From a virus, in the IMG/VR virus record IMGVR_UViG_3300025289_000020: a stretch of DNA of 15,090 bases. One strand, written 5' to 3'. This document shows positions 395 to 13,987 of this stretch, one piece after another; position 1 is the first letter of the stretch, and the number at the start of each line of letters is the position of its first letter. Position numbers and translations under genes: made by a program. The notes below the pieces were generated by a model. It did not search any database and was not told the origin of the DNA. It saw only the letters and a list, made by a program, of their open reading frames with translations.

Positions 395-403
395 CCATGC
401 TGT

Positions 404-431
404 CCACTGCCCACTATCCACTGTCCACTGC
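404..431 (+). repeat. Four tandem heptamers: CCACTGC CCACTAT CCACTGT CCACTGC
   Basis: Read directly in the 56-nt gap between the fibre stop (394) and the next start (451). In another register it reads T(G/A)(T/C)CCAC x4. Confidence 0.9.
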
Positions 432-450
432 GACCGAAGGGAGCTGACCC

Positions 451-735
451 ATGCCACGCATCACCCTCACCGTCGACGGCAAGGCCTACGACATCCCGGA
501 CGCCGCCGTCCCCGCCATCCAGGTCCACGTCGACCGCACCAACGCCGCCGCCAACACCGCCCTCTCCCTCGGCGAGTGGCTGGCCCTCCACCTGCAGGAG
601 CTCGCCATCGCCGACGCCCTGGCCGCCGCCGTCGCCCAGCTCCAGCAGCAGCAGCAGGACGACGCCAACGCCGCCCTGGAAGCCGCGATCAAGGCCGCCC
701 GCGACGAGCTGCTCGCGTCGCTGACAACGCCGTGA
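451..735 (+). CDS. Hypothetical protein, 94 aa, Ala/Gln-rich helical C-terminus
   Basis: ATG preceded by GAAGGGAG (436-443). High GC3. Its stop overlaps the next candidate start (GTGA). Confidence 0.75.
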   Translation: MPRITLTVDGKAYDIPDAAVPAIQVHVDRTNAAANTALSLGEWLALHLQELAIADALAAAVAQLQQQQQDDANAALEAAIKAARDELLASLTTP

Positions 736-950
736 TCGCCCTCTACGCCGTCGGCGCAGCCTACGCCGTCGCCATCGTCCACGCGGCGGGCCGCCTCTGC
801 CTCCTTGCCTGCGCCCACGGGCTACGCAACGCGCTACCCGCCCTCGAACACGCACACCCGCAACCCCCGTCAGAATGGCCCCTCAGCCTGCCTCACGCGC
901 TTTCAGCGCACCCGCCTGCGCCGGTGCTACAATGGCCGCGTGATAACTGA
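732..950 (+). CDS. Small membrane protein (holin or SAR-like segment candidate), 72 aa
   Basis: GTG overlaps the upstream stop (GTGA). The N-terminus VIALYAVGAAYAVAIVHAAGRLCLLACA is a Gly/Ala-rich hydrophobic helix. GC3 is good for the first ~30 codons, then declines. Lies directly upstream of the endolysin. Confidence 0.4.
   Translation: MIALYAVGAAYAVAIVHAAGRLCLLACAHGLRNALPALEHAHPQPPSEWPLSLPHALSAHPPAPVLQWPRDN
925..933 (+). promoter_or_regulatory. Extended -10-like element TGCTACAAT
   Basis: TGnTAnAAT ends 6 nt before GTG 940, which has no Shine-Dalgarno. This is compatible with a leaderless endolysin transcript. Confidence 0.35.
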
Positions 951-1668
951 CCTCACCGCCCGCTTTCCGATCCCCCGCGCCTGGCCCCGCCAGACCAGCC
1001 GCCCCGCCGACATCGACACCAACGCCATCCACCACACCGCCACCCTCTACCTCTCGCCCACCGCCGCCGAAGCCGACGAGATCAACCAGATCGCCGTCAT
1101 TCACCAGTACCACATCGGCCGCGGCTTCGCTGGCTTCGGCTACCACGGCATCGCCTTTCCCAGCAGTCGCGCCTACATCGTCACGCCCTTCGACCAGTGG
1201 GGCGCCAACGTCGCCGAAGAGAACGACCACGTCCACGGCTACGCCGCCGCCGGCACCTACACCACCACGCCACCCCCGCCGGCCCTCCACACCGGACTCG
1301 CCCGCCTCGTCGCCGCCGGACGCCGCTACCTCGGCCGCACCGTCCCCGACAGACCGCACCGCCATTGGGGCGGCACCACCTGCCCGGGCGAACCGTGGGC
1401 GACCTGGGTGCCCGCCCTCACCATCCTCGCATCCAAGGAGGACGACACCATGACCCCACAACAGCAGAAAGAGCTCGCCGCCGCCACCGCCGCCGTCACC
1501 GCCCTCCGCAGGCGCGCCGCCTACGACGCCCACATCGGCGTCCTCCTGCAGTACGCCGGCCAGCTCACCGCCCTCGGCTCCACCGACCCCCGCCCCGTCC
1601 TCGCCGCCCTCAAGAAGCGCATCGCCACCTTCGACGCCGCCCTCGCCTCTGGAGCCGCCCATGCCTAA
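940..1668 (+). CDS. Endolysin, N-acetylmuramoyl-L-alanine amidase (Amidase_2/PGRP type)
   Basis: Motifs AIHHTAT, GFAGFGYHGIAF and HRHWGGTTCPGEPW match the zinc-ligand and signature layout of T7-lysozyme-type amidases. The start is uncertain: GTG 940 gives the usual ~30 aa before the HH motif, but the frame is open and shows good GC3 from TTG 805. Confidence 0.85.
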   Translation: MITDLTARFPIPRAWPRQTSRPADIDTNAIHHTATLYLSPTAAEADEINQIAVIHQYHIGRGFAGFGYHGIAFPSSRAYIVTPFDQWGANVAEENDHVHGYAAAGTYTTTPPPPALHTGLARLVAAGRRYLGRTVPDRPHRHWGGTTCPGEPWATWVPALTILASKEDDTMTPQQQKELAAATAAVTALRRRAAYDAHIGVLLQYAGQLTALGSTDPRPVLAALKKRIATFDAALASGAAHA

Positions 1669-1831
1669 GACCCGCACCGCCGCCGGCGTCAAGGTCACCG
1701 TCACCGCGCCCTTGCTGCCCGTCGCTCTCGCCACCGCCCAGCCCGAGGCCGCCGCCCTCTGCATCATCGCCGCCGCCCTCCAGGCCATGGAAGACCAGGA
1801 GAAGGCCCACGGCACGCCCGCCGAAACGTAA
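1661..1831 (+). CDS. Hypothetical small protein, 56 aa, with a central hydrophobic stretch
   Basis: ATG overlaps the endolysin stop (ATGCCTAA). Very high C-ending GC3. Segment APLLPVALATAQPEAAALCIIAAALQA. Stop TAA at 1829-1831. Confidence 0.6.
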   Translation: MPKTRTAAGVKVTVTAPLLPVALATAQPEAAALCIIAAALQAMEDQEKAHGTPAET

Positions 1832-2162
1832 GCCCGGCGCGCAGCCCGGCAACACCAACGCCCTCACGACCGGCCTGTACGCCCGCTCGCTCGACCGCGC
1901 CCGCCTGCACCAGTACGAGATCGCCCTCGGCATGAGCCCCACCGACCTCACCCGCGAAATCGCCCTCCTCCGCGAGCGCGTAGACCTCCTGCTCCAGGCC
2001 GCCCCCGAACGCCTGGAGCTCCTCATCGCGGCCCTTGGGCGGTTGACACGCATGGTCGCCACGCACTACCATCTCAGCGCCGCCGACACCGACCGGCTCA
2101 CCCAGGCCACACGCAACGTCCTCGACGAGATCGAGGCCACCCTCGGAAGGGGGCACGACTGA
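1830..2162 (+). CDS. GNxNA..GLY-motif protein (paralogue of the TerS-like 5902..6459). 5' boundary undefined: no start codon
   Basis: High GC3 begins exactly at 1830 in this frame (KPGAQPGNTNALTTGLYARSL...). There is no ATG/GTG/TTG in frame upstream, and the first ATG is at 1932. Stop TGA at 2160-2162. Confidence 0.55.
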   Translation, partial: KPGAQPGNTNALTTGLYARSLDRARLHQYEIALGMSPTDLTREIALLRERVDLLLQAAPERLELLIAALGRLTRMVATHYHLSAADTDRLTQATRNVLDEIEATLGRGHD

Positions 2163-2341
2163 TGGACACCGTCTTCACCGACTGCGGCAGCGCCTCCGTC
2201 GCCGTCCAAACCGCCGCAATCGCCCTCACCGCCACCGCCCTGGCCGTCTCCGCCTTCTGCCTCGCCTACATCGCCAAGACCGTCCGCAGCTGGGCAGCCT
2301 GGACCGGGTCCGCTCGAACGCCCCCCGCCGACGACGCCTAG
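2162..2341 (+). CDS. Small membrane protein, 59 aa (holin-like)
   Basis: ATG overlaps the upstream TGA (TGATG). One clear TM helix, VAVQTAAIALTATALAVSAFCLAYIA. High GC3. Confidence 0.65.
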   Translation: MDTVFTDCGSASVAVQTAAIALTATALAVSAFCLAYIAKTVRSWAAWTGSARTPPADDA

Positions 2342-2357
2342 CCCCGGAGGTCACACC

Positions 2358-2441
2358 ATGCGCAACCTGCTCACGATCGCCGCCATCTACGGCATCGGCG
2401 TCGCCACCGGCATCACCTACTCCCTGCTCGCCCTCACGTAG
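2358..2441 (+). CDS. 27-aa hydrophobic peptide
   Basis: GGAGG (2346-2350) lies 7 nt before the ATG. Sequence MRNLLTIAAIYGIGVATGITYSLLALT is essentially a single TM helix. Confidence 0.5.
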   Translation: MRNLLTIAAIYGIGVATGITYSLLALT

Positions 2442-3110
2442 GCTTTGGCGCACCAGCCGGACCCGGCGACGCCCATCGCTCGCCCCACCGCGTAGCGGCC
2501 CAGCACGACGCCATACCGGCCCCCGCCCGGCAGCGCCGACGCCTGTGCCCGCAGGGCCGGGCACGTCGCTTCGCTCCTCACTGGGCGGCGGCTCGCCGGG
2601 CCACCACCTTTCTTCACCCCCGCCTGCCGGCCACGTCGGGCGGCTCTTCGCGGGCAGGGCGCCCCACCCTCGCAGGCTCCCACCACCCCACACGCCCGCT
2701 CAGCCCGCCCTCCGTCGCCTTGCATGGCGGCCCCACGGCCACGGCTCCGCGCCACCCCCGCCGCTCAGGCGGCGACCCCTCCCGCTCCGCCGGCGCCGAC
2801 CCCACAGCGCCGGCAACGACCCGTAGCTACGGCAACCTGAATCGTTTTCCGAAAAAGAACCAAAGCGGCGCGCGAGGCGCGCGTAGCGGTAGCCGGCTTC
2901 GCCGGCACTGAGGACGGTTCACCGCTCCGGCTGGGGGGCCGTGGCGGGGCTGGCCCCTTCCTGGCACGGCGTCGCCGGTCGGCAACCCTACGGGTCCTCC
3001 GCTGCGCTACGGCCCGCCCTACGGGCGGGTGCCTTCCCGCCTCCTTCCGTGCCTGGGGGGCCTTGGCCCCGCTCACTTGGCCCCCCGCCGGGGGGCGGTG
3101 AACAGGGCTG
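2442..3110. other. Large non-coding region between the end of the late/lysis operon and the first early gene
   Basis: No frame on either strand gives a credible protein (only Pro/Arg/Gly-rich translations). The + strand is C-rich at 2442-2830 and G-rich at 2867-3110, with an AT-rich core in between. Many GC hairpins. Confidence 0.6.
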
Positions 3111-3124
3111 GAAAGGGGCGTGTC

Positions 3125-3307
3125 GTGGCCGGTGCATATCGCGCGTGTCCTGGGTGTGGCCGTCGCCGCTCGTCCTGGCTGGCCTGCGGTCACTGCGGCT
3201 GGCGCTGGCCTCTCTGTTCGTGTGGTTTGCCGTTGGGGCCGTCCGGCTGCGCCCGGTCCGGCTGTGGCGGTCAGTCGGCGCTGTTCGCGCCGGAGAAAGG
3301 GGAGTAG
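3125..3307 (+). CDS. Zinc-ribbon mini-protein A, 60 aa (CPGCG..x8..CGHCG, ends PEKGE)
   Basis: GTG lies 6 nt after GGAAAGGGG. Shares Cys spacing and the C-terminal PEKG(E/D) with the 3549..3704 product. Its last codons form the SD of the next gene. GC3 does not discriminate it from the overlapping frame of ORF 2941..3552. Confidence 0.55.
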   Translation: MAGAYRACPGCGRRRSSWLACGHCGWRWPLCSCGLPLGPSGCARSGCGGQSALFAPEKGE

Positions 3308-3309
3308 TC

Positions 3310-3552
3310 GTGTTCTCGGAGATCATCGTCGCAACCTGCCGTGAGTGCGGAGAGCACACACACCTGCGGCTGTGGCCGGAGCGGGCGGTCTGCCTGTCCT
3401 GCGGCGGGAGCTGGTGCCGGTGCTGCAACCCGCCGGTGACCCTTCCGCCCGCCGGGGCGGCCCCCTGCCCGGCGCAAGACTTCAAGCGCGCCCTGCAGGC
3501 CACCTACGGCGGGCGTATAGAAGAGCACGCGCGCTACTGGGTGGCGTCGTGA
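3310..3552 (+). CDS. Cys-rich zinc-ribbon protein, 80 aa
   Basis: GTG lies 5 nt after GGAGAAAGGGGAG. Contains CRECG...CLSCG plus CRCC. Its stop overlaps the next start (GTGA). Confidence 0.7.
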   Translation: MFSEIIVATCRECGEHTHLRLWPERAVCLSCGGSWCRCCNPPVTLPPAGAAPCPAQDFKRALQATYGGRIEEHARYWVAS

Positions 3553-3704
3553 TTGGCCTGTGGTCCTGCCCACGCTGCGGCTCGCTCTACACCGCCGTAC
3601 CGCAGCAAGATAGAAGCCCGCGCGCACCGTCGGTTTGCGGACACTGCACCGTCACCCTCCGGCCCCTGGCAACCGTCCCGGAGAAAGGGGACCAGCGGCC
3701 ATGA
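3549..3704 (+). CDS. Zinc-ribbon mini-protein B, 51 aa (CPRCG...CGHC, ends PEKGDQRP)
   Basis: GTGA overlap with the upstream gene. Paralogous layout to 3125..3307. Its C-terminal codons again spell GGAGAAAGGGGA, the SD for the next gene. Confidence 0.65.
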   Translation: MIGLWSCPRCGSLYTAVPQQDRSPRAPSVCGHCTVTLRPLATVPEKGDQRP

Positions 3705-3979
3705 GCCGCTCGGCCCGCCGCTGGCCGCCGCTGGACACGCCGCCGGAGCGCCGCCCTCCGGCCCCGGCTCCCCGCCAGCCTTCGCCCTGGTGGCCCGTCG
3801 CCGGTGTCGCCGCTGCCGCGCTACTCGTCGCAGCCGGCAGCTCCCGGCCCGGCCCGTCGCCGGAGGAATCCATACGGGCATACGCCTGCCAGCACCAGAC
3901 GGACGCCGTGCTGGCCTGGGCGGAAGACCGGGGCGTCCGGGTAGACGTGCGGGAGTGCCCGCCGAGAGAGGAGAAGTAG
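3701..3979 (+). CDS. Membrane-anchored protein, 92 aa
   Basis: ATGA overlap, with the SD 9 nt upstream. Pro/Arg-rich N-terminus, then TM WWPVAGVAAAALLVAAG, then a small C-terminal domain. Confidence 0.7.
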   Translation: MSRSARRWPPLDTPPERRPPAPAPRQPSPWWPVAGVAAAALLVAAGSSRPGPSPEESIRAYACQHQTDAVLAWAEDRGVRVDVRECPPREEK

Positions 3980-3981
3980 CC

Positions 3982-4392
3982 ATGCCCACCCTGAACGGAG
4001 CCTGCCCCGGCTGCGGCCAGCCCCTCACCCTGGAGGTAGCCGTCCGCACAGCCCCGCGCGGCTTCACGTCCGACAGCCGGCAGGTACAACTCGTCGGCGA
4101 CCGGGAGCCCGGCCAGGGCGGCACGCCCACACCGGACAACGAAGAGCCCTACGGCACCACCCGCGCCGCTGCCCCGCACTACTCCGGCGTCAGCCGTCCC
4201 CACCCGTCGCCGGTCAACTCGCAGGACGGACGCCCCACCTGCCCGGAGTGCGGCCTGGACGGCGCGCGGCTGGAGCAGGTCGCCAAGAAGAGCGGTCGCG
4301 CCTTCACCGCCTGGAAGTGCATCAACACCGAGTGCGACCAGAACGACGAAATCATCCCGGGTACCTTCCGCTGGGGAAAGGCAGCGGCGTAG
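3982..4392 (+). CDS. Zinc-finger protein, 136 aa, with a topoisomerase-type C4 finger-like C-terminus
   Basis: GAGGAG lies 8 nt before the ATG. N-terminal CPGCG. C-terminal CPECG..x20..KCINTEC with GRAFTAWKC resembles the CPxCG...F..C...C pattern of Topo I C4 fingers (from memory, not searched). Confidence 0.8.
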   Translation: MPTLNGACPGCGQPLTLEVAVRTAPRGFTSDSRQVQLVGDREPGQGGTPTPDNEEPYGTTRAAAPHYSGVSRPHPSPVNSQDGRPTCPECGLDGARLEQVAKKSGRAFTAWKCINTECDQNDEIIPGTFRWGKAAA

Positions 4393-4408
4393 ACTCCAGA
4401 CAACCACC

Positions 4409-4447
4409 GGCCCGCCGGACGGTTGCACCCCCTCCGTCCGGCGGGCC
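4409..4447 (+). terminator. Perfect 14-bp stem hairpin (GGCCCGCCGGACGG / CCGTCCGGCGGGCC, 11-nt loop), no U-tract
   Basis: Read directly, 17 nt after the 4392 stop and 27 nt before ATG 4474. Could be a terminator/attenuator or an RNA stability element. Confidence 0.5.
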
Positions 4448-4473
4448 ACCAGCACCGACAGAGGAGAACGACC

Positions 4474-5094
4474 ATGAAGAGCACAGCCACCATCGCCAGC
4501 GTCAAGACCTCGCACCAGGCCGCCAACTACAACGGCCCCGCCACCACCACCCTGAGCATCACCCTAGACATCCCCCTACCCACGCCGACCGCGCCGCTCA
4601 CAATCACCGACTGGGCGCGCCGGCTGCCGTACAACGAGACGCAGGAGATCCGGAAGGCCCAGGAGCAACGCGCGGCCAGGGCCGCCGGGCGGAAGCCCCT
4701 GAACCTCACCAAGAAGCAGAAGCAGGCCCAGGAAGACGCGCACGACGACGGCGAGGAGTGCGCCTGGACGCTCACCTGCGAGAACTGCAACCCCGTCACC
4801 GGCGCGGGAGAGGGCGACGACCTCCCCTGCCTGGAGCACAGAGACCCCGACTGCCTCACCTGCGAGGAGGCGGGCGCCCCCTTCCTGGACGGGGCCACCC
4901 AGGCCAACCTCCAGGCCCGCTACGAGCTCTACGTCACGGACGTTCAGACCATCAACCGCCAGGCCGTCCAGGCGGCGCAGGAGGCGGCCCTCTTCCTGCT
5001 GCTCATCAAGCAGGCCGTCCAGGTGACGGTCGAACCCCTGCAGGGAGCAATGTCCGACCTGCTCCTCCTGGAAGGAGGCGAGCCCGCCGGCTAA
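4474..5094 (+). CDS. Hypothetical protein, 206 aa, with a central Cys cluster
   Basis: GAGGAG lies 7 nt before the ATG. High GC3. Contains CENC..x15..C..x7..CLTC. Lys/Gln-rich linker and helical C-terminus. Confidence 0.85.
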   Translation: MKSTATIASVKTSHQAANYNGPATTTLSITLDIPLPTPTAPLTITDWARRLPYNETQEIRKAQEQRAARAAGRKPLNLTKKQKQAQEDAHDDGEECAWTLTCENCNPVTGAGEGDDLPCLEHRDPDCLTCEEAGAPFLDGATQANLQARYELYVTDVQTINRQAVQAAQEAALFLLLIKQAVQVTVEPLQGAMSDLLLLEGGEPAG

Positions 5095-5124
5095 ACGCTC
5101 ACCCGCTTAGACCTATTGACAGTC

Positions 5125-5160
5125 GCACCGCCCTGGCGCTATCGTCGGGGCGGTGCTTTT
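5125..5160 (+). terminator. Intrinsic terminator: 9-bp GC stem (GCACCGCCC / GGGCGGTGC) followed by TTTT
   Basis: Sits 30 nt after the 5094 stop. It is the only stem plus T-tract I found in the window and closes the early module. Confidence 0.7.
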
Positions 5161-5291
5161 GCGAGGCCAGCGCGGGCGGCCCGCCTGCCACCAACGGCAG
5201 CCAGGGCCGCCCGCGCCGGGCCAACAGCAGGGGCACCGAGAGGAGACGGCCATTGCAGAGCACCACCGCAGAGGCCAGAGCCACCGGCCCA

Positions 5292-5300
5292 TGCTATAAT
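5292..5300 (+). promoter_or_regulatory. Extended -10 element TGCTATAAT
   Basis: Perfect TGnTATAAT in a ~70% GC genome, located in a non-coding gap. No good -35. Confidence 0.45.
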
Positions 5301-5365
5301 CGCGGCCAGCACCAACCCCAGGGAGAACAGGGCAGCCGGGCAGGTTCGCACTATACATGTTCGCA

Positions 5366-5394
5366 TCGACGGCTGCCCCCGCTCGGCGTAGAAT
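5366..5394 (+). promoter_or_regulatory. Promoter-like TCGACG - 17 nt - TAGAAT
   Basis: The spacing and hexamers fit a sigma70/SigA-type promoter. The -10 ends 9 nt before the coding-like segment that opens at 5404. Confidence 0.45.
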
Positions 5395-5403
5395 CGGCCC
5401 CAA

Positions 5404-5626
5404 TTGTACGCCCCCGACCGGCTCCAACTCCAGCTACTCCGCCAGCTCGCCCAGACCGCCGGATACACCGGCCCCGGCCTGATCTGCCTCGACTGCCCAC
5501 GCCCCCAACACCTGCCCCCCTTCCTCCCCTTCTTCCTCCCAATCCACGTCCGGGAGCACCTGGAACGCTGGCCCACCCACGCCCTGCGCTGGTGGTGCTG
5601 GACGTGCTGCGCGTTTGATTGTACCC
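5404..5626 (+). CDS. Coding-like zinc-ribbon segment (CLDC..x32..CWTCC) with a TTG start and no in-frame stop
   Basis: High C-ending GC3 from 5404 to about 5612 in this frame, after which GC3 collapses. The frame stays open to 6459. The next real gene (ATG 5627) is in the +1 frame. Confidence 0.3.
5610..5626 (-). repeat. 17-bp motif copy A (minus orientation): reverse complement GGGTACAATCAAACGCG
   Basis: 16/17 identical to copy B at 6075..6091 in inverted orientation. Abuts ATG 5627. Confidence 0.85.
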
Positions 5627-5905
5627 ATGCCCAACGACTCGATTCAGCCCACGTTCAACGAATCCGAGGCCATCTCCAACGACGCCGCCCTGCAGCAGCT
5701 CCTCAAGTGGTACCCCGGCCAGGAGGCCCAGATCATCGCCGCCTACCGCCGCCGGCACCCACACGAAGGCTGCAACTGCCCCTGGCAGAACCGGAAGGCG
5801 GGCCGCTGCTGCACCCTGGACCGCATCAACCCGCCCCCCCAGGCCAGCCGCCGAAGCAGAAGCCCAAGCCGCGCAGGCCAGTACAGGGAGCAGATAAACC
5901 GGTGA
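5627..5905 (+). CDS. Hypothetical protein, 92 aa, with CNC...CC cysteines and a basic tail
   Basis: ATG start with high GC3. Its stop overlaps the next start (GTGA). No SD; motif copy A occupies the upstream 17 nt. Confidence 0.7.
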   Translation: MPNDSIQPTFNESEAISNDAALQQLLKWYPGQEAQIIAAYRRRHPHEGCNCPWQNRKAGRCCTLDRINPPPQASRRSRSPSRAGQYREQINR

Positions 5906-6459
5906 GCCCCCGGGGAGGGCGCCGCCCCGGCGCAGGCGCGCCACGGGGTAACAAGAACCGCCTCCTGCACGGCCTCTACTCCGGCGACCCGGAGACCCGC
6001 CGCCTCTCCCGCGCCCTCGCCGCCCTGCCCGCCGACGTCCGGCAGCAGCTCCTCCCCTACGTCAAGGAGGGCCTGGGTACAATCAAACGCCGCCTCGCCT
6101 GGGTGGCCCCGCACCTGCGCCACCAGGAGCCCACCGGCAACCTCGTCCACTTCCCTACCGTCACAACAACAACACCGCCGGTTCAATCAAACGCCCACCT
6201 GGCCCCGCTGGTCCTGCAGCTCACCGCCGCCGGCCTGTTCGGCGCCGGTCCCTTCGTCCACGACCACGCCCCAGCCGCCGGCGTCATCTGCGAGGTCCTC
6301 CAGTACATCCACGACCACCCGGAGGGGATCGCCAACCCCGGCGCCCTCATCCGATACCTCGTCCACCAGGAACTCGCAGAGCCAGCCGCGGGCGGCGGAC
6401 TCCGCTGCCCCTACTGCCGGTGGACAGACCACCGGCAAAGAGAGGAGAGCACCTCATGA
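5902..6459 (+). CDS. Terminase small subunit-like protein, 185 aa (N-terminal GAPRGNKNRLLHGLYS motif)
   Basis: GTG start. The GxPxGNxNxxxHGxY motif recurs in YjcR/PBSX-type small terminases (from memory). Size and position upstream of TerL fit. C-terminal CPYC. Confidence 0.6.
   Translation: MSPRGGRRPGAGAPRGNKNRLLHGLYSGDPETRRLSRALAALPADVRQQLLPYVKEGLGTIKRRLAWVAPHLRHQEPTGNLVHFPTVTTTTPPVQSNAHLAPLVLQLTAAGLFGAGPFVHDHAPAAGVICEVLQYIHDHPEGIANPGALIRYLVHQELAEPAAGGGLRCPYCRWTDHRQREESTS
6075..6091 (+). repeat. 17-bp motif copy B: GGGTACAATCAAACGCC
   Basis: Inside the TerS-like gene, encoded with atypical codons ggt aca atc aaa. Confidence 0.85.
6179..6195 (+). repeat. 17-bp motif copy C: CGGTTCAATCAAACGCC
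   Basis: 15/17 identical to copy B and 104 bp downstream in direct orientation. Encoded with atypical codons gtt caa tca. Confidence 0.8.
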
Positions 6460-6650
6460 CCGACCCCCAGGACATCGGCCTGGACGACGAGATCAACACC
6501 TGGACGGCCAACGGCGCCGGCCTGCTCCGCCGCATCCGCGACCGGCGTCAGAAGCTCCAGGCCGCCGACCGCGAGCTGGCCGCCATCGAGGCCCGCACCA
6601 TCGACGCCCTGCACCAGCTCAGCGCCATCCAGGAGGCGGTGACGCGATGA
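6456..6650 (+). CDS. Hypothetical coiled-coil protein, 64 aa
   Basis: AGAGGAGAG lies 8 nt upstream. ATGA overlaps at both ends. High GC3. Confidence 0.75.
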   Translation: MTDPQDIGLDDEINTWTANGAGLLRRIRDRRQKLQAADRELAAIEARTIDALHQLSAIQEAVTR

Positions 6651-6748
6651 ACGACCACGACCCCGAAGGATGGGCCTGGCCCTACGCCGTGCTGCTGCTC
6701 ATCCTCCTGCTGGCCTTCGCCATCTGGTACGCGGGGCTCGCACAATGA
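6647..6748 (+). CDS. 33-aa membrane peptide
   Basis: ATGA overlaps at both ends. Contains the TM segment YAVLLLILLLAFAIWYAGL. Confidence 0.6.
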   Translation: MNDHDPEGWAWPYAVLLLILLLAFAIWYAGLAQ

Positions 6749-6948
6749 AACCCCACTACAGCGCCCGCCTGGAACGCTGCACCCAGTCCACCGACAGCAA
6801 GACCGGCGGGCCCCTCCCCCTGCGCATCCAGATCGCCATCCCCTCATACGCCACCGGCCTGGCCATCCTGCGCGACCTGTCCGCAGGCCGCGTCCCTATC
6901 ACCATCGTCATCGAGGCCGTCCAGGCCCACCTACCGGAACCCGAATGA
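6745..6948 (+). CDS. Hypothetical protein, 67 aa
   Basis: ATGA overlaps at both ends, with good GC3. Function unknown. Confidence 0.7.
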   Translation: MKPHYSARLERCTQSTDSKTGGPLPLRIQIAIPSYATGLAILRDLSAGRVPITIVIEAVQAHLPEPE

Positions 6949-8309
6949 CCATCCAGCTCCGCCCCTACCAGGCCGAGCCGGCGCGGGCCATCATCCGCGA
7001 CGCCCGCCTCGGCGGCGGGCACACATTCACCGTCCTGATGAGCCGGCAGGCCGGCAAGAACGAGCTCAGCGCCTGGATCGAGAAGGTCCTCCTCGTCGCC
7101 AACATGGCCAACCCCCACGCGATCGGCGTCAAGACCGCACCCACCCTGACGCCGCAGCTCCGCAACAGCATCCGCCGCCTGCGGGCCCACCTGGACGCCG
7201 CCGGCTTCCGCAACGCCTACGCCCTGGAGGAGGGCCACCTCCTCACCCTGGGCGCCGCCGCCTGGAACTTCCTCAGCGCCGCCCCCGGCGCCTCCGTCCT
7301 GGGCGCCACCGCCGGCCTGCTGCTGGAGGCCGACGAGGCCCAGGATATCGACCCCGACCGCTTCACAAAGGACTTCCGGCCGATGGCGGCCAGCACCGCC
7401 GCCACGACCGTCCTCTACGGCACACCCTGGAGCGAGGACGACCTGCTGCTGGCCACCGTCGCCGAGAACAAGGCGCGAGAGCGCAAGGACGGCCTCCAGC
7501 GGCACTTCGAATACCCCTGGCAGGAGGTGGCGAAGCACGTCCCCGCCTACGCCCGCTACGTGGAGGCTGAGCGCATCCGGCTCGGCCCCACGCACCCCCT
7601 GTTCACCAGCCAGTACGACCTCACGCCACTGCCGGGCACGGGCCGCCTGCTGTCGCCCGCCCAGCTCACCAACCTCCAGGGCAGCCACGACCGCCGCCAC
7701 TTCGCCAAGAAGGGCGAGACCCACGCCGCCGGCCTGGACGTCGCCGGCGAGGAAACCGACCCGCTCAGCCCCCGCGACCGCGACCACAACGTCCTGTGGA
7801 TCAGCCGCGTCACACCCGGCCCCAAGCACTCCCTCCCACTGTCCGAGACCGTCGCCATCTACGCCTGGCAGGGCACCGGCCACGACGCCCTCTACGCGCA
7901 CCTCCACCGCCTGCTACGCGACGTCTGGAACATCGCCCACGTCGCCGTGGACGCCACCGGCGCCGGCGAGGGCATGGCGATCCTCCTGGCCCGCTCCCTC
8001 GGCGAGCACCGCGTCACCGCCTACAAGTTCACCGAGCAGAGCAAGTCCCACCTGGGCTACCAGCTCCAGGCCGCAGCGAACACCGGCGCCCTCAAGCTCT
8101 GGAAGGCCGACGGCGGCGCGGAGCACAACGAGGCCCAGCGCCAACTTCGGCTCTGCCGCGCCGAGTACCGGCCAAACCGCACGGTCCGCTGGCACGTCGA
8201 CCCCAGCCAAGGGCACGACGACTACGTCGCCGCCGCCGCCCTCGCGGTCGAGGCCGCGACCCAGGCGCAGCCCCGCCGCGCCCGTGGTAGAATCCCCACA
8301 GCGCCATGA
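6945..8309 (+). CDS. terL: Terminase large subunit, 454 aa
   Basis: Walker A-like SRQAGKNE, Walker B-like LLLEADEAQD, and C-terminal acidic nuclease-type motifs GLDVAGEE, VAVDATGAGEG and GHDDYVAAA. Located directly upstream of the portal gene. Confidence 0.9.
   Translation: MTIQLRPYQAEPARAIIRDARLGGGHTFTVLMSRQAGKNELSAWIEKVLLVANMANPHAIGVKTAPTLTPQLRNSIRRLRAHLDAAGFRNAYALEEGHLLTLGAAAWNFLSAAPGASVLGATAGLLLEADEAQDIDPDRFTKDFRPMAASTAATTVLYGTPWSEDDLLLATVAENKARERKDGLQRHFEYPWQEVAKHVPAYARYVEAERIRLGPTHPLFTSQYDLTPLPGTGRLLSPAQLTNLQGSHDRRHFAKKGETHAAGLDVAGEETDPLSPRDRDHNVLWISRVTPGPKHSLPLSETVAIYAWQGTGHDALYAHLHRLLRDVWNIAHVAVDATGAGEGMAILLARSLGEHRVTAYKFTEQSKSHLGYQLQAAANTGALKLWKADGGAEHNEAQRQLRLCRAEYRPNRTVRWHVDPSQGHDDYVAAAALAVEAATQAQPRRARGRIPTAP
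8285..8293 (+). promoter_or_regulatory. Extended -10-like TGGTAGAAT inside the last codons of terL
   Basis: The last 10 terL codons use atypical cgt ggt aga aca cca, and the element ends 12 nt before portal ATG 8306, which has no SD. Confidence 0.3.
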
Positions 8310-9655
8310 CCGACCAGACGCCACTCCCCCACCTCCTCAAGAACCGGGACCGCGACCGCCTCCAGCAGTACACCAGCGCCCTGGCCTTCTACGAGGGCAA
8401 GCAGTGGCCGGCGCCAGAGGCGCGCACCCGCAGCGTCCGCCGCCTCACGCTGAACTACGCCAAGGCCATCGTCAACAAGACCGCCACGTTCACCATGAAG
8501 GGCGCCGCCGTCAACGCCAGCCCCCGCTCCGACAGCGACGAGGACATCGCCGCCGCCGCCGCGGTCGAGCACTACCTGGCGGAGCTGGCCCACAACAACG
8601 GCCTGGCCCGCCTGGACCTGGTGACCGAGATCGACGCCGCCGTCCTCGGCGACGCCGCCTACAAGGTCACCTGGGACACCGCAGAGGAGCGCGTCGCCAT
8701 CACCGCCCCCGACGTGCGCGGCCTCTTCCCCTGGCCGCACCCGACCGACCCCACGCGGTTTACCCGCGTCGCCCATCGCTACACCCTCCCCCGCGAGGAC
8801 GTCATCGCCCTGTGGGGCATCGCCCCACGCGACAAGACCGCCGAAATCATCGAGGACTGGACCGACGCCACCCTGGACATCTGGATCGACGGCGGCCCCA
8901 CGCCCACCCTCACCCAGGTCAACCCCTACGCCCTCATCCCCCTCGTCATCTACCCCAACAACCAGGTCCCCAAACGGTGGTGGGGCGAATCCGACGTTCT
9001 CCCCCTCCAGGAGATCGCACAGGAGCTCAACCGCCAGATGACCCGCGTCAGCAACATCCTGGAGCTCTCCGGCTTCCCGATCGCCGTCCTGGAGAACGTG
9101 GACGAGGCCACCGACATCGCCGCCGTCCCCGGCGCCGTCTGGGAGCTGCCCAGGGAGGCCAAGGCCTACCTGCTGGACCTCCTGCAGGGCGGCGGCGTCA
9201 AGCTCCACCTGGACTACACCGACCACCTCCTGCGCGCCCTCCACGACATCAGCGAGACCCCCCGGACCGCTTTCGGCAACGTGGACCGCGAGCTCTCCGG
9301 CGTCGCCCTGCAGGTCGAGCTGCAGCCCCTCCTCCAGAAGGTCGACCGGAAGCGCACCATTCGCGGCGACGCCTACACCCAGCGCGCCGCTCTCGCCCTG
9401 CGCCTCTCCGACCTCTTCACCGGCACCGCCTATACCGACTCCATCGCCGGCCTCACGGCGTCCTGGGACCCGCCCGGCCCCGCAGACAGGACGCGGGACA
9501 TCGAAGACGAGACCGCGCTCGTCACCAACGGCCTGTCTAGCCGCCGCAGCAGCATGGGGCGCTTGCAGACCCCCGACCCAGACAAAGAGCTGGCGACCTG
9601 GCAGGAGGAGACCCGCGCTATCGAGGCCTTGACATCAGCGCCTAAACGCGGGTAA
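8306..9655 (+). CDS. Portal protein, 449 aa
   Basis: Immediately follows terL (ATGA overlap) and has typical size. N-terminal YEGKQW...LTLNYAKAIVNK resembles SPP1 gp6-type portals (from memory). Confidence 0.85.
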   Translation: MTDQTPLPHLLKNRDRDRLQQYTSALAFYEGKQWPAPEARTRSVRRLTLNYAKAIVNKTATFTMKGAAVNASPRSDSDEDIAAAAAVEHYLAELAHNNGLARLDLVTEIDAAVLGDAAYKVTWDTAEERVAITAPDVRGLFPWPHPTDPTRFTRVAHRYTLPREDVIALWGIAPRDKTAEIIEDWTDATLDIWIDGGPTPTLTQVNPYALIPLVIYPNNQVPKRWWGESDVLPLQEIAQELNRQMTRVSNILELSGFPIAVLENVDEATDIAAVPGAVWELPREAKAYLLDLLQGGGVKLHLDYTDHLLRALHDISETPRTAFGNVDRELSGVALQVELQPLLQKVDRKRTIRGDAYTQRAALALRLSDLFTGTAYTDSIAGLTASWDPPGPADRTRDIEDETALVTNGLSSRRSSMGRLQTPDPDKELATWQEETRAIEALTSAPKRG

Positions 9656-9658
9656 GCT
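9629..9658 (+). promoter_or_regulatory. Promoter-like TTGACA - 18 nt - TAAGCT
   Basis: Perfect -35 and a TANNNT -10 ending 9 nt before ATG 9668, which lacks an SD. Would drive the scaffold and capsid genes. Confidence 0.35.
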
Positions 9659-9667
9659 CCTCACGAA

Positions 9668-10090
9668 ATGCCAGACGCTAACGGCAACCCCACCCCCGAA
9701 GAGCAGGCGGCCGCAGAACAAGCCACCGCCGCCCAGCCGCAGGCCGACACCCAAGCCCTCACCGAACAGCTCACCCAAGCCCAGGCCCGCAACCTGGAGC
9801 TGGAGACCGCCGCCATCCGCGCCGCCAACCCCGACCTCCCGGACGCGGCCTTCGCCGGCGACGACCTCGCGGCCATCCAGGCCAGCGTCGCCACCGCCAG
9901 GGCCGTTGCCGACCACGTCCGCGAGCAAACCGTTGCCAACGGCGCCGCCACGCCCGCCGCCGCCGCCGCCGCCGTCGCCGCCGCTGCAGCCGCGACCCCC
10001 ACAGGCGCCGGCGCACAGCGAACGCCCCCCGCACCCGAGGGGCTGAAGGGCATCGACCGCATCAAGTTCGGGCTCGCCCAGAGGAGCTAA
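9668..10090 (+). CDS. Scaffolding protein candidate, 140 aa
   Basis: Lies between the portal and capsid genes. Ala/Gln/Glu-rich helical sequence, low complexity. Confidence 0.65.
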   Translation: MPDANGNPTPEEQAAAEQATAAQPQADTQALTEQLTQAQARNLELETAAIRAANPDLPDAAFAGDDLAAIQASVATARAVADHVREQTVANGAATPAAAAAAVAAAAAATPTGAGAQRTPPAPEGLKGIDRIKFGLAQRS

Positions 10091-10093
10091 CCA

Positions 10094-11059
10094 ATGGCCC
10101 TGACACTCGCCGAAGCCGACAAGTACAGCACCAATCAGGTCCTCGTCGGCGTCGCCGAGATCACAATGGACCAGAACCCGCTCCTCGGCCTCCTGCCGTT
10201 CACCCCCATTCGCGGCAACGCCCTCCAGTACCAGCGCGAGCTCGCCGCCAGCGCCCCCACCTTCATCGCCACCGGCGGCACAGTCACCGAAGGCGTCCCC
10301 ACCACCAGCCTCATCACCACAGCCCTTAAAATCCTCATCGGCGACGCCGACATCGACAACTTCCTCCGCGTCACCAGGTCGAAAGACCAGGACCTCCGCG
10401 CCGAGCTGCTGGCAATCAAGGCCCGCAACTTCGCCGACACCTGGGGCGACGCCGCCATCTACGGCAGCATCGACGCCGCCGCCGCGCAGTTCGACGGCCT
10501 CCACGAGATCATCGCCGACGACGTAACCGCCCAGCAGCTCCACGCAGGCTCCGTCGCCACGCCAGGCGTAGGAACCTTCACCCTGCTTCGCGAACTGATC
10601 GACCTCATCCGGCCCCGGCCCACCGTCCTGATCATGAGCCGCCGCACCCGGCGCGGCATCCAGAAGCTCGCCGTCTCCCAGGGCTGGGACCTGGCCCTAA
10701 CGAACGTCGCCGGCATCGACCGCCAGGTCCAGACGTTCAACGAAGTCCCCATCCTCCCCTGCGACTTCATAACCGACACCGAGACCATCGCCAGCTCCGC
10801 CTTCGCCGCCAAGACCGGCGGCACCGCCTCCAGCATCTTCGCCTGCCGGCTGGCCGAAGACGGCCTGTTCGGCATCTCCGCCGACGACCCCAACGCCCAG
10901 GACGACCTTGAGCGCATCATCCAGGTCGAAGAGGTCGGCGCCCTGGAGACCCAGGACGCCCGCCGCACCCGCCTGAAGGCCTACACCGCCCTCTGCGTCA
11001 AGGCCAGCCAGGCGATCGGCCGGATTGACGGCATCTCCTCCGGCGACTGGACCAACTAA
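10094..11059 (+). CDS. Major capsid protein candidate, 321 aa
   Basis: GAGGAG lies 7 nt upstream. Position after the scaffold gene, size typical for HK97-fold coat proteins, very strong GC3. No diagnostic motif read by eye. Confidence 0.75.
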   Translation: MALTLAEADKYSTNQVLVGVAEITMDQNPLLGLLPFTPIRGNALQYQRELAASAPTFIATGGTVTEGVPTTSLITTALKILIGDADIDNFLRVTRSKDQDLRAELLAIKARNFADTWGDAAIYGSIDAAAAQFDGLHEIIADDVTAQQLHAGSVATPGVGTFTLLRELIDLIRPRPTVLIMSRRTRRGIQKLAVSQGWDLALTNVAGIDRQVQTFNEVPILPCDFITDTETIASSAFAAKTGGTASSIFACRLAEDGLFGISADDPNAQDDLERIIQVEEVGALETQDARRTRLKAYTALCVKASQAIGRIDGISSGDWTN

Positions 11060-11061
11060 CC

Positions 11062-11250
11062 ATGGCGGGCATCTGGTGCCCCCGCTGCCAGACAAAGGTC
11101 CGCCTGGAACAGGACGACCAGAGCTGCAGCAACTGCGGCCGCAAACTCGTCATCGCGGCCCCCACACCCCCACCCCCGCCCCCACGCGGGAAACGCGCCC
11201 CACGCGCCAGGAAACCCACCAGCCCGCCCAGGCCAAAGCCCGCCGCCTAA
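11062..11250 (+). CDS. Zinc-ribbon protein, 62 aa, with a Pro/Arg/Lys-rich tail
   Basis: CPRC..x12..CSNCG followed by PPPPPPRGKRAPRARKPTSPPRPKPAA. The ATG lies 2 nt after the capsid stop. Confidence 0.7.
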   Translation: MAGIWCPRCQTKVRLEQDDQSCSNCGRKLVIAAPTPPPPPPRGKRAPRARKPTSPPRPKPAA

Positions 11251-11264
11251 AGGAGCGCCGCTAG

Positions 11265-11885: not shown

Positions 11886-11888
11886 CCG

Positions 11889-13922: not shown

Positions 13923-13987
13923 AAAACGACCCTCTGAGAGCCACGAGAAGCCCCCCCAACCAACCGCCACCACACCAGGAGACCCCC

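What the first reader, a model, noticed from the sequence alone, without database searches (positions are those of the whole stretch)
5610..6195. AT-rich 17-bp motif in three copies around and inside the TerS-like gene, written in rare codons (pac site or operator candidate)
The three copies are:
- Copy A, 5610-5626, minus orientation, GGGTACAATCAAACGCG.
- Copy B, 6075-6091, GGGTACAATCAAACGCC.
- Copy C, 6179-6195, CGGTTCAATCAAACGCC.

A and B form a 16/17 inverted pair 448 nt apart (5626 to 6075). B and C are direct repeats 104 bp apart, about 10 helical turns. B and C are encoded with codons that are otherwise avoided here (ggt aca atc aaa; gtt caa tca), and between them lies ACA x4 (6163-6174) where ACC is the norm. 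This indicates selection on the DNA or RNA itself.

Pac sites of headful phages commonly lie inside the small terminase gene, which fits the circularly permuted look of the assembly. Alternatives:
- Operators for an early protein.
- TACAAT-type internal promoters, with copy A firing antisense into the regulatory region.
- A long-range RNA duplex between A and B that masks the SD-less start at 5627.
Basis: partly seen in the sequence, partly recalled or inferred. Interest (0 to 1): 0.75.

Follow-up and report, generated by a model that had tools for sequence, protein, structure and literature searches.

The report
Conserved DNA sites in TerS-like gene
A short AT-rich DNA word is kept in three copies in and beside one small gene of a 15-kb high-GC phage, against the genome's codon habits and in every relative. 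It is almost certainly a cluster of protein-binding sites, most likely where DNA packaging (or else replication) starts.

Summary
All three copies share an exact 11-nt core (CAATCAAACGC); no shuffle of the window gives three matches. The nine-base word CAATCAAAC is kept in every relative that carries the gene. This holds where the protein is only 38% identical, and the word is read in different frames (xIKR in copy B, QSN in copy C). CAA and TCA of copy C are the only rare codons that never vary across 12 relatives.

The layout is also conserved: an inverted copy about 300-340 nt upstream of a conserved N-terminal module, then two direct copies 95-116 bp apart on one helical face.

The same word, with a CA-rich tract, follows this module in distant prophage and chromosomal Chloroflexi homologues. 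There it appears in all three reading frames or after the stop codon.

The gene is 'TerS-like' only through a roughly 25-residue motif and its position near TerL. It passes no family threshold.

- **Best reading:** cognate double-stranded DNA sites for the encoded protein, most likely a bipartite pac region of the SPP1 kind (confidence about 0.4).
- **Still open:** a replication origin inside an initiator gene, looping operators, or an RNA element.
- **Not supported:** TACAAT promoters; a conserved A:B RNA duplex.

The parts
5610..5626 (-). Copy A (GGGTACAATCAAACGCG; core at 5613-5621). It is written into the last codons of ORF X (AFDCT) and abuts ATG 5627.
   Evidence: It is conserved 300-343 nt upstream of the module in most 15-kb relatives (557 nt in L026). 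In L042, L043 and L018 the equivalent copy is non-coding, 8 nt upstream of the Shine-Dalgarno sequence of the fused X-Y gene.
6075..6091 (+). Copy B (GGGTACAATCAAACGCC), read as G-T-I-K-R in the frame GGT ACA ATC AAA CGC.
   Evidence: It lies 142-151 nt after the module start in relatives and is lost in the L006/L007/L009 allele group.
6179..6195 (+). Copy C (CGGTTCAATCAAACGCC), read as V-Q-S-N in the frame GTT CAA TCA AAC. This is a different reading frame of the word from copy B.
   Evidence: CAA and TCA never vary in 12 relatives. This is the most widely conserved copy, also present in L045, L053, L054, L174 and L175.
6163..6174 (+). CA-rich tract (ACA x4) just upstream of copy C.
   Evidence: It is ACA x4 in most relatives, TCA x4 in the divergent allele (T to S with 'CA' kept), and (CA)8-9 in distant homologues.
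5902..6459 (+). Its GTG start overlaps the stop of the preceding gene (GTGA). Copies B and C fall at the end of the N-terminal helical part and in the poorly modelled linker before a confident C-terminal helical and CPYC domain.
   Evidence: GC3 frame. No Pfam or PHROG family matches. AF2 model: pLDDT below 50 for residues 75-95, above 90 for about 100-170. No Foldseek match.
5911..5982 (+). Coding sequence of the conserved N-terminal module RGGRRPGAGAPRGNKNRLLHGLYS, the inferred nucleic-acid-binding part.
   Evidence: It is nearly invariant across 428 profile hits and at least 1974 clusters. It gives weak hits to TerS PHROGs 1889, 9231 and 509 and to NCBIfam NF040601.
5404..5626 (+). ORF X: TTG start, Cys/His-rich (CxxC...HxxxH, WWC). 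It has no stop codon of its own, and its frame stays open to 6459.
   Evidence: X and Y form one 260-aa gene in L042, L043 and L018.
5627..5905 (+). 92-aa Cys-rich gene lying between X and Y in this clade. Its ATG has no Shine-Dalgarno sequence and sits directly after copy A.
   Evidence: High GC3 in this frame. The protein is conserved in L002-L009, L041 and L044 and absent from L042, L043 and L018.
5095..5403 (+). Intergenic region with conserved promoter-like blocks that would transcribe rightwards through A, B and C. The blocks are TTGACA-N18-TATCGT (5116-5145), TGcTATAAT (5292-5300) and TAGAAT (5389-5394).
6945..8309 (+). Large terminase (TerL), starting 486 nt downstream of the end of gene Y.
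   Evidence: PHROG 5909 at 1e-7 and Terminase_6C (weak). It is 37-92% identical to TerL in 33 IMG/VR loci.

Best explanation
The three copies are cognate double-stranded-DNA recognition sites for the protein encoded around them. That protein is X-Y/Y, whose near-invariant Arg/Gly-rich module is RGGRRPGAGAP-GNxNxLxHGxYS. The sites are held by selection on the nucleotide sequence, not on the protein.

In this phage they most likely form a bipartite packaging-initiation (pac) region. Protein oligomers bind B and C, which lie about 100 bp apart on the same face of the helix. They also bind the inverted copy A about 465 bp upstream. The DNA is looped or wrapped, and the complex is handed to the large terminase encoded 0.5 kb downstream for the first cut of a headful series.

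- **Shown:** the sites exist, are non-random, are under nucleotide-level constraint, keep a conserved geometry, and co-occur with the module gene.
- **Inferred:** that the encoded protein binds them, that it acts as the small terminase, and that cutting and packaging start here.
For: 1. **Non-random and constrained at the nucleotide level.** 0 of 200 shuffles give three matches. Rare codons are used. The word is read in different frames in B and C. CAA and TCA of copy C are the only rare codons that never vary in 12 relatives.
2. **Conserved geometry.** A lies at -300 to -343, B at +142 to +151 and C at +246 to +258 relative to the module start. Motif density is 2.08 per kb within 600 nt of the module against 0.064 per kb elsewhere.
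3. **Helical phasing.** B-C spacings of 95, 96, 104, 107 and 116 nt all fall within 0.19 turn of an integer. About one third of spacings would do so by chance, and 0.33^5 is about 0.004. This suits proteins bound to duplex DNA.
4. **Motif and module travel together.** Relatives of the phage that lack X-Y lack the motif. Distant homologues keep it: 115 of 222 family proteins contain QSN, NQT or xIK[RQHPL] against 12.2 expected, and the DNA was checked directly in L045, L054, L174 and L175.
5. **TerS-like features.**
   - The module hits only families annotated as terminase small subunit: PHROG 1889, 9231, 509 and 18735, and NCBIfam NF040601.
   - In relatives with 37-39% TerL identity, the gene immediately upstream of TerL is a Cys-rich domain plus the same module plus helices. 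X-Y has this same architecture.
   - One such relative (L036) has a separate O-like initiator with its own iterons.
6. **Position and assembly.** The site sits at the head of the morphogenesis operon, 0.5 kb from TerL, downstream of conserved promoters. Two genomes of the family assemble as circles, which is compatible with circular permutation.
Against: - No binding or cutting data exist, and read termini were not available.
- The TerS assignment rests on about 25 residues. Scores are 14-25 bits against a cut-off of 120, and no Pfam family matches. Neither AF2 model matches any solved or viral structure.
- Full-length homologues sit in early operons of integrative elements, in the order integrase, HTH_17, then Y, with no TerL nearby (L054, L174).
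- Short homologues sit in Chloroflexi chromosomes beside methyltransferase, McrBC or ThiF-type genes, again with the motif but no terminase.
- The window encodes a second protein with a related motif (about 1797-2162), which could be the real TerS.
- Copy B is dispensable in one lineage, and the A-B distance is 699 nt in L026.
- All B- and C-type copies are in sense orientation and lie in a G-poor tract, which would also suit an RNA element.
Confidence: 0.4

Rival explanations
1. Replication origin inside its initiator gene, as with lambda ori in gene O or SPP1 oriL in gene 38. B and C would be iterons bound by the N-terminal module. The CA-rich tract next to C would be the easily unwound region, and the C-terminal domain would recruit host replication proteins.
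For: - B and C, with the lowest-GC stretch of the gene, lie at the end of the N-terminal helical part and in the poorly modelled linker, between the conserved N-terminal module and the separate C-terminal domain.
- The 15-kb genome has no recognisable replication gene.
- Homologues in L054 and L174 sit in early operons after integrase and HTH_17, and in L054 upstream of a DnaB_2 protein.
- Transcription from the conserved upstream promoters would pass through the sites.
Against: - There are only two direct sites about 100 bp apart, not three to five close iterons.
- The tract is about 50% GC, not AT-rich.
- There is no similarity to O, DnaD or Rep families.
- The relative L036 has a separate O-like initiator with internal iterons next to a module protein in the TerS slot.
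- A better origin candidate exists at 2350-3300: it is gene-poor, has inverted GC skew, and contains the most AT-rich 40-mer of the genome.
- Short chromosomal homologues lack the C-terminal domain.
Confidence: 0.2
2. Operators for (auto)regulation by DNA looping. The protein, or another early protein, would bind A between the promoters and the first genes. B and C would act as auxiliary operators inside the coding region, as with lac O1/O2.
For: - In L042, L043, L018 and L026, A lies between promoter-like AT-rich blocks and the Shine-Dalgarno sequence of X-Y.
- B and C are in helical phase.
- In SPP1 the pacL sites also overlap the promoter region, so this role could coexist with a pac role (from established knowledge, not tested here).
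Against: - In chromosomal and prophage homologues the sites lie at the 3' end of the gene or after it, not at its promoter, and most have no upstream copy.
- In the window clade A is 220-500 nt downstream of all promoter-like blocks.
Confidence: 0.15
3. An RNA-level element. The sense-strand CAAUCAAAC copies and the G-poor CA tract would form an accessible single-stranded site on the mRNA, bound by the Arg/Gly-rich module or a host factor. Copy A would be its antisense partner, pairing with B or C to hide AUG 5627 or the Shine-Dalgarno sequence of X-Y.
For: - The A:B helix is in the MFE and centroid fold of this window. A:B or A:C pairing is predicted in about half of the relatives.
- All B- and C-type copies across the family are in sense orientation, even after the stop codon.
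- Chromosomal homologues end with an inverted TTGATTGA that could pair with a direct copy.
Against: - There is no covariation. The core never varies, and flanks are uncompensated (3-5 of 8 pair) except in this genome.
- The region's fold is no better than shuffles (z = -0.38).
- A 9-bp AU-rich helix across 450 nt of GC-rich RNA is weak.
- The helical phasing of B and C has no meaning for RNA.
- No Rfam family matches.
Confidence: 0.1
4. Boundaries or recombination sites of a small mobile cassette that carries the module gene. The inverted copy would mark one end and the direct copies the other, in the manner of transposon ends or an attC-type site.
For: - Chromosomal copies lie at the edge of variable defence-gene islands. 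Each ends with the same TTGATTGACCG, after which sequence similarity stops.
- The word resembles the integron RYYYAAC / GTTRRRY pair at 6 of 7 positions (my own comparison, from memory of the consensus).
Against: - The phage and the chromosomal loci examined have no transposase or integron integrase.
- In the phage, B lies in the middle of a conserved gene.
- The GTT of the attC core is not kept in the chromosomal inverted copies.
- A and B are 450 nt apart, against at most about 140 nt for attC.
Confidence: 0.07
5. TACAAT-type internal promoters.
For: Copies A and B contain TACAAT.
Against: - The hexamer's key positions vary among relatives (TTCAAT, AACAAT, GACAAT), while the part downstream of it is invariant.
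- The sigma-70 scan finds no -35/-10 pair at A, B or C on either strand.
- Copy A would fire antisense into genes that all lie on the plus strand.
Confidence: 0.03

Closest known systems
SPP1 pac region (pacL / pacC / pacR bound by the small terminase G1P)
   Same: Repeated short recognition boxes lie upstream of and inside the 5' half of the small-terminase gene, at the head of the late operon. The sites are separated by hundreds of bp, so binding implies looping or wrapping. They overlap the gene's own regulatory region.
   Different: Box sequences and the protein are unrelated. Here one word is used in inverted and direct orientation, whereas SPP1 has different boxes in pacL and pacR. Spacings are larger. 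No cleavage site is known. The TerS identity of the protein is not established.
pac sites inside terS genes of P22 (gene 3) and P1 (pacA, seven hexamer repeats)
   Same: A packaging signal is embedded in the coding sequence of the recognition subunit, so codon choice is constrained by the DNA signal. P1 uses several copies of a short asymmetric word on both sides of the cut.
   Different: P22 has one 22-bp site. P1 hexamers are clustered within 162 bp and are regulated by Dam methylation. Neither word is known to be conserved across a protein family as divergent as this one, or to accompany chromosomal homologues.
Terminase small subunit families NCBIfam NF040601 (TerS_not_xtmA) and PHROG 1889 / 9231 / 509, with the HGGxSTG domain (NF041373)
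   Same: They share the G-A-P-x-G-N-x-N-A-x-K-H-G-x-Y-S module. In the relatives L034 and L036 this module follows a Cys-rich HGGxSTG-like segment and sits directly upstream of TerL. X-Y has the same order: Cys/His-rich part, module, helices.
   Different: Similarity is limited to about 25-50 residues (E of 1e-3 to 1e-5, 14-25 bits against a cut-off of 120). Y has an extra C-terminal helical and CPYC domain. Two small genes separate it from TerL.
Lambda ori within gene O (and SPP1 oriL within gene 38)
   Same: Binding sites for the encoded protein lie in the stretch of its own gene between an N-terminal DNA-binding part and a C-terminal domain, next to a less stable DNA tract.
   Different: Lambda has four closely spaced 19-bp iterons and a truly AT-rich region. 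Here there are two sites about 100 bp apart plus a distant inverted one. There is no homology to O.

Membership tests
pac site of a headful phage inside or next to terS | Lies in or beside the gene of the small terminase subunit. | tested here: inconclusive
   The gene carries a TerS-type module and is the nearest gene of TerS size upstream of TerL. It passes no family threshold.
pac site of a headful phage inside or next to terS | Terminase cuts at or near the site, giving a unidirectional headful series and a circularly permuted, terminally redundant genome. | not testable with these tools
   No reads or virion DNA were available. The assemblies are circular (94-nt and 55-nt end overlaps), which is compatible but not diagnostic.
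pac site of a headful phage inside or next to terS | Specifically bound by TerS. | not testable with these tools
   The only evidence is co-conservation of the motif with the module gene.
Terminase small subunit (NF040601 / PHROG 1889, 9231) | Profile score above the curated cut-off. | tested here: not met
   P0006 (the X-Y fusion) scores 18.8 bits against a cut-off of 120. Y alone has no hit. PHROG E-values are 0.009 for P0006 and 1e-4 at best among small module-family members.
Terminase small subunit (NF040601 / PHROG 1889, 9231) | Gene immediately upstream of TerL. | tested here: inconclusive
   Y ends 486 nt before TerL, with two small genes between them. In L034, L036 and L039 a module protein occupies the slot directly upstream of TerL.
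Terminase small subunit (NF040601 / PHROG 1889, 9231) | Fold: N-terminal DNA-binding domain plus an oligomerisation helix hairpin. | tested here: inconclusive
   The AF2 models show a disordered Arg/Gly N-terminus, short helices and a 40-residue helix. No Foldseek match has E below 1 in PDB or BFVD.
Iteron origin inside an initiator gene (lambda O type) | Three or more closely spaced iterons plus an AT-rich unwinding element. | tested here: not met
   There are two direct copies 104 bp apart, and the adjacent tract is 50% GC.
Iteron origin inside an initiator gene (lambda O type) | The encoded protein belongs to a replication-initiator family. | tested here: not met
   No Pfam, PHROG or NCBIfam initiator hit was found. 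The O-like protein of L036 is unrelated to the window proteins tested.
Sigma-70 promoter | A -35 and a -10 hexamer at 16-18 nt spacing, with conserved A2 and T6 of the -10. | tested here: not met
   No such site is found at A, B or C. Position 2 of the hexamer is T in most C copies.
Conserved long-range RNA helix | Compensatory changes keep the pairing across relatives. | tested here: inconclusive
   The core never varies, so it gives no information. Flanks pair at 3-5 of 8 positions except in this window, where 7 of 8 pair. The helix is predicted in about half of the relatives.
Integron attC site | An RYYYAAC ... GTTRRRY inverted pair 50-140 nt apart, with an IntI integrase in the element. 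| tested here: not met
   A and B are 448 nt apart, and the window has no integrase.

The most novel reading that the evidence does not exclude
The module gene and its CAATCAAAC/CA-tract cluster form a self-contained recognition cassette: a DNA-binding protein with its own cis site. The cassette is shared between small Chloroflexi phages, integrative elements, and the borders of chromosomal defence-gene islands. The chromosomal copies would be TerS-pac (or initiator-ori) cassettes that let resident islands be packaged or amplified by these phages. That would be a satellite-like route for moving defence genes in a phylum where none is known. Alternatively, the element is a new kind of cis-acting nucleic-acid signal recognised by an Arg/Gly-rich module.
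Probability: 0.15. Interest if true: 0.85.

Novelty: new variant of a known kind. Interest (0 to 1): 0.6.

Why it matters
**What the signal is.** Signals written into coding DNA against codon bias are rare and direct pointers to cis-acting sites. Here a 9-nt word is more conserved than the protein that carries it. It is read in all three frames across a family of at least 1,900 protein clusters. It gives a precise, testable recognition pair (module and word) for an uncultured group of about 15-kb high-GC phages that probably infect Chloroflexi.

**If it is the pac site.**
- It defines the packaging start and the recognition subunit of these phages.
- It supports a bipartite looping or wrapping model like that of SPP1, in an unrelated lineage.
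- It raises the question of why chromosomal defence islands carry the same pair.

**If it is an origin or an RNA element.** It would identify the otherwise missing replication or control function of these minimal genomes.

Tried and rejected
**Similarity searches that found nothing useful**
- DNA and protein similarity to 50,697 deposited phages. No DNA match; the capsid protein is at most 33% identical. The module peptide and the 1797-2162 protein gave nothing useful.
- Rfam and tRNA scans of the window found nothing.
- Pfam, PHROG, NCBIfam and PADLOC on Y, X, the 92-aa protein and their neighbours gave no family above threshold.
- A PDB sequence search with the family profile found nothing.
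- Two AF2 models and three Foldseek searches gave no structural relative.
- A literature search for the word returned only primers.
- A homologue search for the 207-aa neighbour (4471-5094) returned only unnamed proteins.

**Collection scans that were swamped**
- Motif-pair scan of viral contigs.
- (CA)n-plus-motif scan of metagenomes.
- Both were swamped by chance hits in AT-rich or microsatellite DNA, and only already-known loci or one short contig carried the module.
- Searches of viral contigs with P0051 and P0029 gave no relative and one motif-less module protein beside a primase-like gene.

**Ideas rejected**
- An analogous repeat arrangement in relatives that lack X-Y: none was found.
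- The open frame from X through to Y as evidence for a fusion protein. The -1 frame is generally open in this genome because T is rare at third codon positions; there are 873-aa off-frame ORFs.
- DnaA boxes: none.
- IHF consensus WATCAANNNNTTR: the TTR half is absent in all copies (by eye).
- A terminator role for the T-rich plus strand of copy A: the weak hairpin at 5592-5610 is not present in the L042-type relatives.
Full report
**1. Setting**

The window is a circular assembly of 14,996 bp; bases 1-94 repeat at 14997-15090. It is 70% G+C, and nearly all genes lie on the plus strand, with GC3 around 0.95.

It is a small tailed phage. Recognisable genes are:
- TerL at 6945-8309.
- An SPP1-type portal at 8306-9655.
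- The major capsid protein at 10094-11059.
- An SU10-type adaptor at 11265-11885.
- An Amidase_2 endolysin at 805-1668.

No deposited phage resembles it at the DNA level, and the capsid protein is at most 33% identical to any. IMG/VR holds 33 loci with TerL 37-92% identical. The one genome-bin hit is a Chloroflexi MAG, and protein relatives are labelled Dehalococcoidia or Chloroflexi. The host is therefore probably in Chloroflexota.

**2.

- With up to 3 mismatches the 17-mer occurs three times, against 0.01 expected, and 0 of 200 shuffles reach three.
- The core CAATCAAACGC is exact in all three copies.
- The A/B inverted repeat runs for 22 nt at 95% complementarity and covers ATG 5627.
- The codon argument is correct in numbers. 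GGT, ACA, AAA, GTT, CAA and TCA are used for 2-14% of their amino acids. Four of the 30 ACA codons are the run at 6163-6174.

**3. Conservation shows selection on nucleotides**

Every relative that carries the gene carries the motif. The consensus is GG-W-W-CAATCAAAC-S, and the nine-base word is essentially invariant. This holds for the L006/L007/L009 allele, whose protein is only 38% identical.

Copy B is read as xCA ATC AAA CGC ((T/S)IKR). Copy C is read as GTT/GAA CAA TCA AAC ((V/E)QSN). The same word is therefore kept in two frames.

The Thr4 run ACA x4 becomes Ser4 TCA x4 in the divergent allele. The amino acids change but the 'CA' is kept.

Of 168 ungapped codon columns in 12 sequences, 31 have an invariant amino acid. 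Only five have an invariant codon: GAC, CAC and TGG, plus the rare CAA and TCA of copy C.

**4. Anatomy of the locus**

The gene is more complicated than '5902..6459'.
- Upstream lies ORF X (5404-5626). It has a TTG start and is Cys/His-rich, with a CxxC...HxxxH pattern. It shows good coding statistics but has no stop codon.
- In relatives L042, L043 and L018, X and Y are one 260-aa gene (P0006, P0007). There copy A is non-coding, 8 nt upstream of the gene's Shine-Dalgarno sequence.
- In the window clade a 92-aa Cys-rich gene (5627-5905) sits between X and Y in the +1 frame. Y starts at a GTG that overlaps that gene's stop.
- In this clade copy A is written into the last codons of X. It encodes AFDCT as GCG TTT GAT TGT ACC; relatives have AYDCT as GCC TAC GAC TGC ACC. 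It directly abuts ATG 5627.
- As a result A stays 300-320 nt upstream of the module-coding sequence despite the 280-nt insertion. In L026, which has a long linker, A stayed upstream of X and lies at -557.
- The continuing open frame from X into Y is not itself evidence of a fusion. The -1 frame is generally open in this genome.

Upstream, 5095-5403 is an intergenic region with conserved promoter-like blocks. These are TTGACA-N17/18-TAnnGT, TGnTATAAT, CACTATAnATG and TAGAAT.

**5. Geometry**

Across the 15-kb phages, A (inverted) lies at -300 to -343, B at +142 to +151 and C at +246 to +258 relative to the module start. Motif density is 2.08 per kb within 600 nt of the module, against 0.064 per kb in the remaining 156 kb of the loci examined.

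B-C spacings in five lineages are 95, 96, 104, 107 and 116 nt. All fall within 0.19 turn of an integer number of 10.5-bp turns. About a third of spacings would do so by chance, and 0.33^5 is about 0.004. The lineages are few and coding limits the options, so this is suggestive only. It does fit proteins bound on one face of duplex DNA.

B and C fall at the end of the N-terminal helical part and in the poorly modelled linker (residues 75-95, pLDDT below 50). This lies between the N-terminal module with its helices and a confident C-terminal domain.

**6. The protein**

Y matches no Pfam or PHROG family. A profile search finds 428 relatives. About 44 are full-length. Hundreds share only the N-terminal module RGGRRPGAGAPKGNxNAxKHGRxS, and a second search finds at least 1,974 clusters.

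The only named families this module touches are terminase small subunits:
- PHROG 1889 is hit by 18 of 60 members scanned, PHROG 9231 by 8, PHROG 509 by 6 and PHROG 18735 by 1.
- NCBIfam NF040601 is hit at E of 1e-5 to 1e-3.
- All scores are far below the curated cut-off.

Synteny adds weight. In relatives with 37-39% TerL identity, the gene directly upstream of TerL is a Cys-rich HGGxSTG-like segment plus the same module plus helices (L034, L036, L039). This is the architecture of X-Y. L036 also has a separate O-like/DnaD-like initiator with three 23-nt iterons inside it.

Against this, neither AF2 model finds any structural relative. The window also has a second protein with a related motif at about 1797-2162.

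**7. The motif is a property of the whole gene family**

In distant full-length homologues, the linker before the C-terminal domain reads TTTT..VQSN, SSSS..EQSN, QQQQQPEQSN, THTHTDTQSNNQ or NNNNNQ. These are translations of a CA-rich tract plus CAATCAAAC.

DNA confirms it where available:
- L045 has (CA)n followed by CAATCAAAGTCAATCAAAC, in a genome with the opposite strand bias.
- L054 has a B-like copy and, 96 nt later, (CA)9 followed by CAATCAAACAATCAAAG.
- L174 and L175 are similar.

Of 222 family proteins, 115 contain QSN, NQT or xIK[RQHPL], the three reading frames of the word. Composition-preserving shuffles give 12.2.

Short chromosomal homologues (115-154 aa) occur in Chloroflexi/Dehalococcoidia contigs of up to 588 kb.
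- They lie beside N6_N4 methyltransferase with or without McrBC, TaqI_C, or HTH_3/M78/Multi_ubiq/ThiF genes.
- No TerL or integrase is nearby.
- Most (four of five examined) carry two or three direct motif copies at the 3' end of the gene, or after the stop codon.
- Three of the five end with an inverted TTGATTGACCG.

Two full-length homologues sit in early operons of integrative elements, in the order integrase, HTH_17, then Y (L054, L174).

**8. Interpretation**

Two conclusions are solid. The word is a cis-acting nucleic-acid signal, and it is tied to the gene that encodes the Arg/Gly-rich module. The simplest reading is that the module protein binds it.

For this phage I rank a pac function first, at about 0.4. 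The reasons are:
- TerS-type module and architecture.
- Synteny with the TerS slot.
- Position at the head of the morphogenesis operon, 0.5 kb from TerL.
- Sites both upstream of and inside the gene, as in SPP1.
- Helical phasing of B and C.
- A separate initiator in a relative.

The main rival, at about 0.2, is an origin inside an initiator gene. It is favoured by the linker location, the early-operon context of two homologues, and the absence of any other replication gene. It is weakened by the small number and wide spacing of sites, the lack of a truly AT-rich tract, and a better origin candidate at 2350-3300.

Other readings:
- Looping operators (about 0.15) fit the L042-type position of A. 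They do not fit the 3' location of the sites in other family members.
- An RNA element (about 0.1) fits the strict sense orientation and the G-poor context. It has no covariation support: flanks pair at 3-5 of 8 positions except in this genome, and the fold z-score is -0.38.
- Cassette ends or recombination sites (about 0.07) are suggested only by the chromosomal copies.
- TACAAT promoters (about 0.03) are contradicted by the pattern of conservation and by the scan.

**9. Novelty and limits**

A pac site or origin embedded in the gene of its recognition protein is a known kind of arrangement. Three things are unusual here:
- The word is conserved more deeply than the protein.
- It is read in all three frames across the family.
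- It accompanies chromosomal homologues next to defence genes.

Nothing here demonstrates binding, cutting or initiation. Look-ups of genomic context were limited to about a dozen loci, and collection-wide motif scans were swamped by chance matches.

Noticed in passing
window 1-94 and 14997-15090; L042 ends: Bases 1-94 exactly repeat at the end, so the window is a circular 14,996-bp assembly, broken inside the tail-fibre gene (14110..394). The relative L042 (15.9 kb) is also circular, with a 55-nt overlap.
   Followed up: partly
window 5404-6459: ORF X (5404-5626, Cys/His-rich) has no stop codon and is in frame with Y. X and Y are a single 260-aa gene in L042, L043 and L018. In this clade a 92-aa Cys-rich gene (5627-5905) lies in the +1 frame between them. 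This is either an insertion or an overprinted gene. Copy A appears to have been re-created in the last codons of X.
   Followed up: partly
window 2350-3300 (and L042 3175-4493): This is a stretch of about 1 kb with weak or no coding signal and locally inverted GC skew. It contains the most AT-rich 40-mer of the genome (2824-2863, 42% GC), next to a terminator-like hairpin on the minus strand (2868-2882). It may be an origin, a regulatory region or a non-coding RNA. No Rfam family matches.
   Followed up: partly
window 5095-5403: This intergenic region has four conserved promoter-like blocks: TTGACA-N18-TATCGT (5116-5145), TGcTATAAT (5292-5300), CACTATACATG (about 5350) and TAGAAT (5389-5394). 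The first block overlaps a conserved hairpin CACCGCCC...GGGCGGTG followed by TTTT, which may terminate the upstream operon.
   Followed up: partly
window ~1797-2162: A second protein carries a related motif (PGAQPGNTNALTTGLYA) and weak TerS-family hits. It lies between the endolysin and a 59-aa membrane protein, far from TerL, and has no CAATCAAAC copies nearby.
   Followed up: partly
window 6743-6751: A near-copy of the word, CAATGAAAC (one mismatch), overlaps the ATG (6745) of the 67-aa gene that abuts TerL. It was not checked in relatives.
   Followed up: no
window 400-430: The tandem repeat CTGTCCA occurs about 4.4 times in the short gap between the tail-fibre gene and the next gene.
   Followed up: no
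L046 8001-8465, L048 8001-8465, L050 1041-1550, L052 7001-7500: Chromosomal Chloroflexi/Dehalococcoidia homologues of the module (115-154 aa) sit at the edge of variable blocks of defence-type genes (N6_N4 methyltransferase, McrBC, TaqI_C, ThiF/Multi_ubiq). Most have their own cluster of motif copies. L046, L048 and L050 end in the same TTGATTGACCG.
   Followed up: partly
L034 3030-3140; L036 2797-2888: L034 has about 15 tandem copies of GGTGTGA (CA-rich on the other strand) immediately upstream of its TerS-slot gene. L036 has three 23-nt iterons inside an O-like/DnaD-like initiator gene just upstream of its TerS-slot gene.
   Followed up: no
L024 2692-3627; L054 1227-2366; L174 136-1275: Some relatives and homologue-bearing elements encode tyrosine integrases. 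Parts of this phage group and of the gene family are therefore temperate or integrative. The window genome has no integrase.
   Followed up: no
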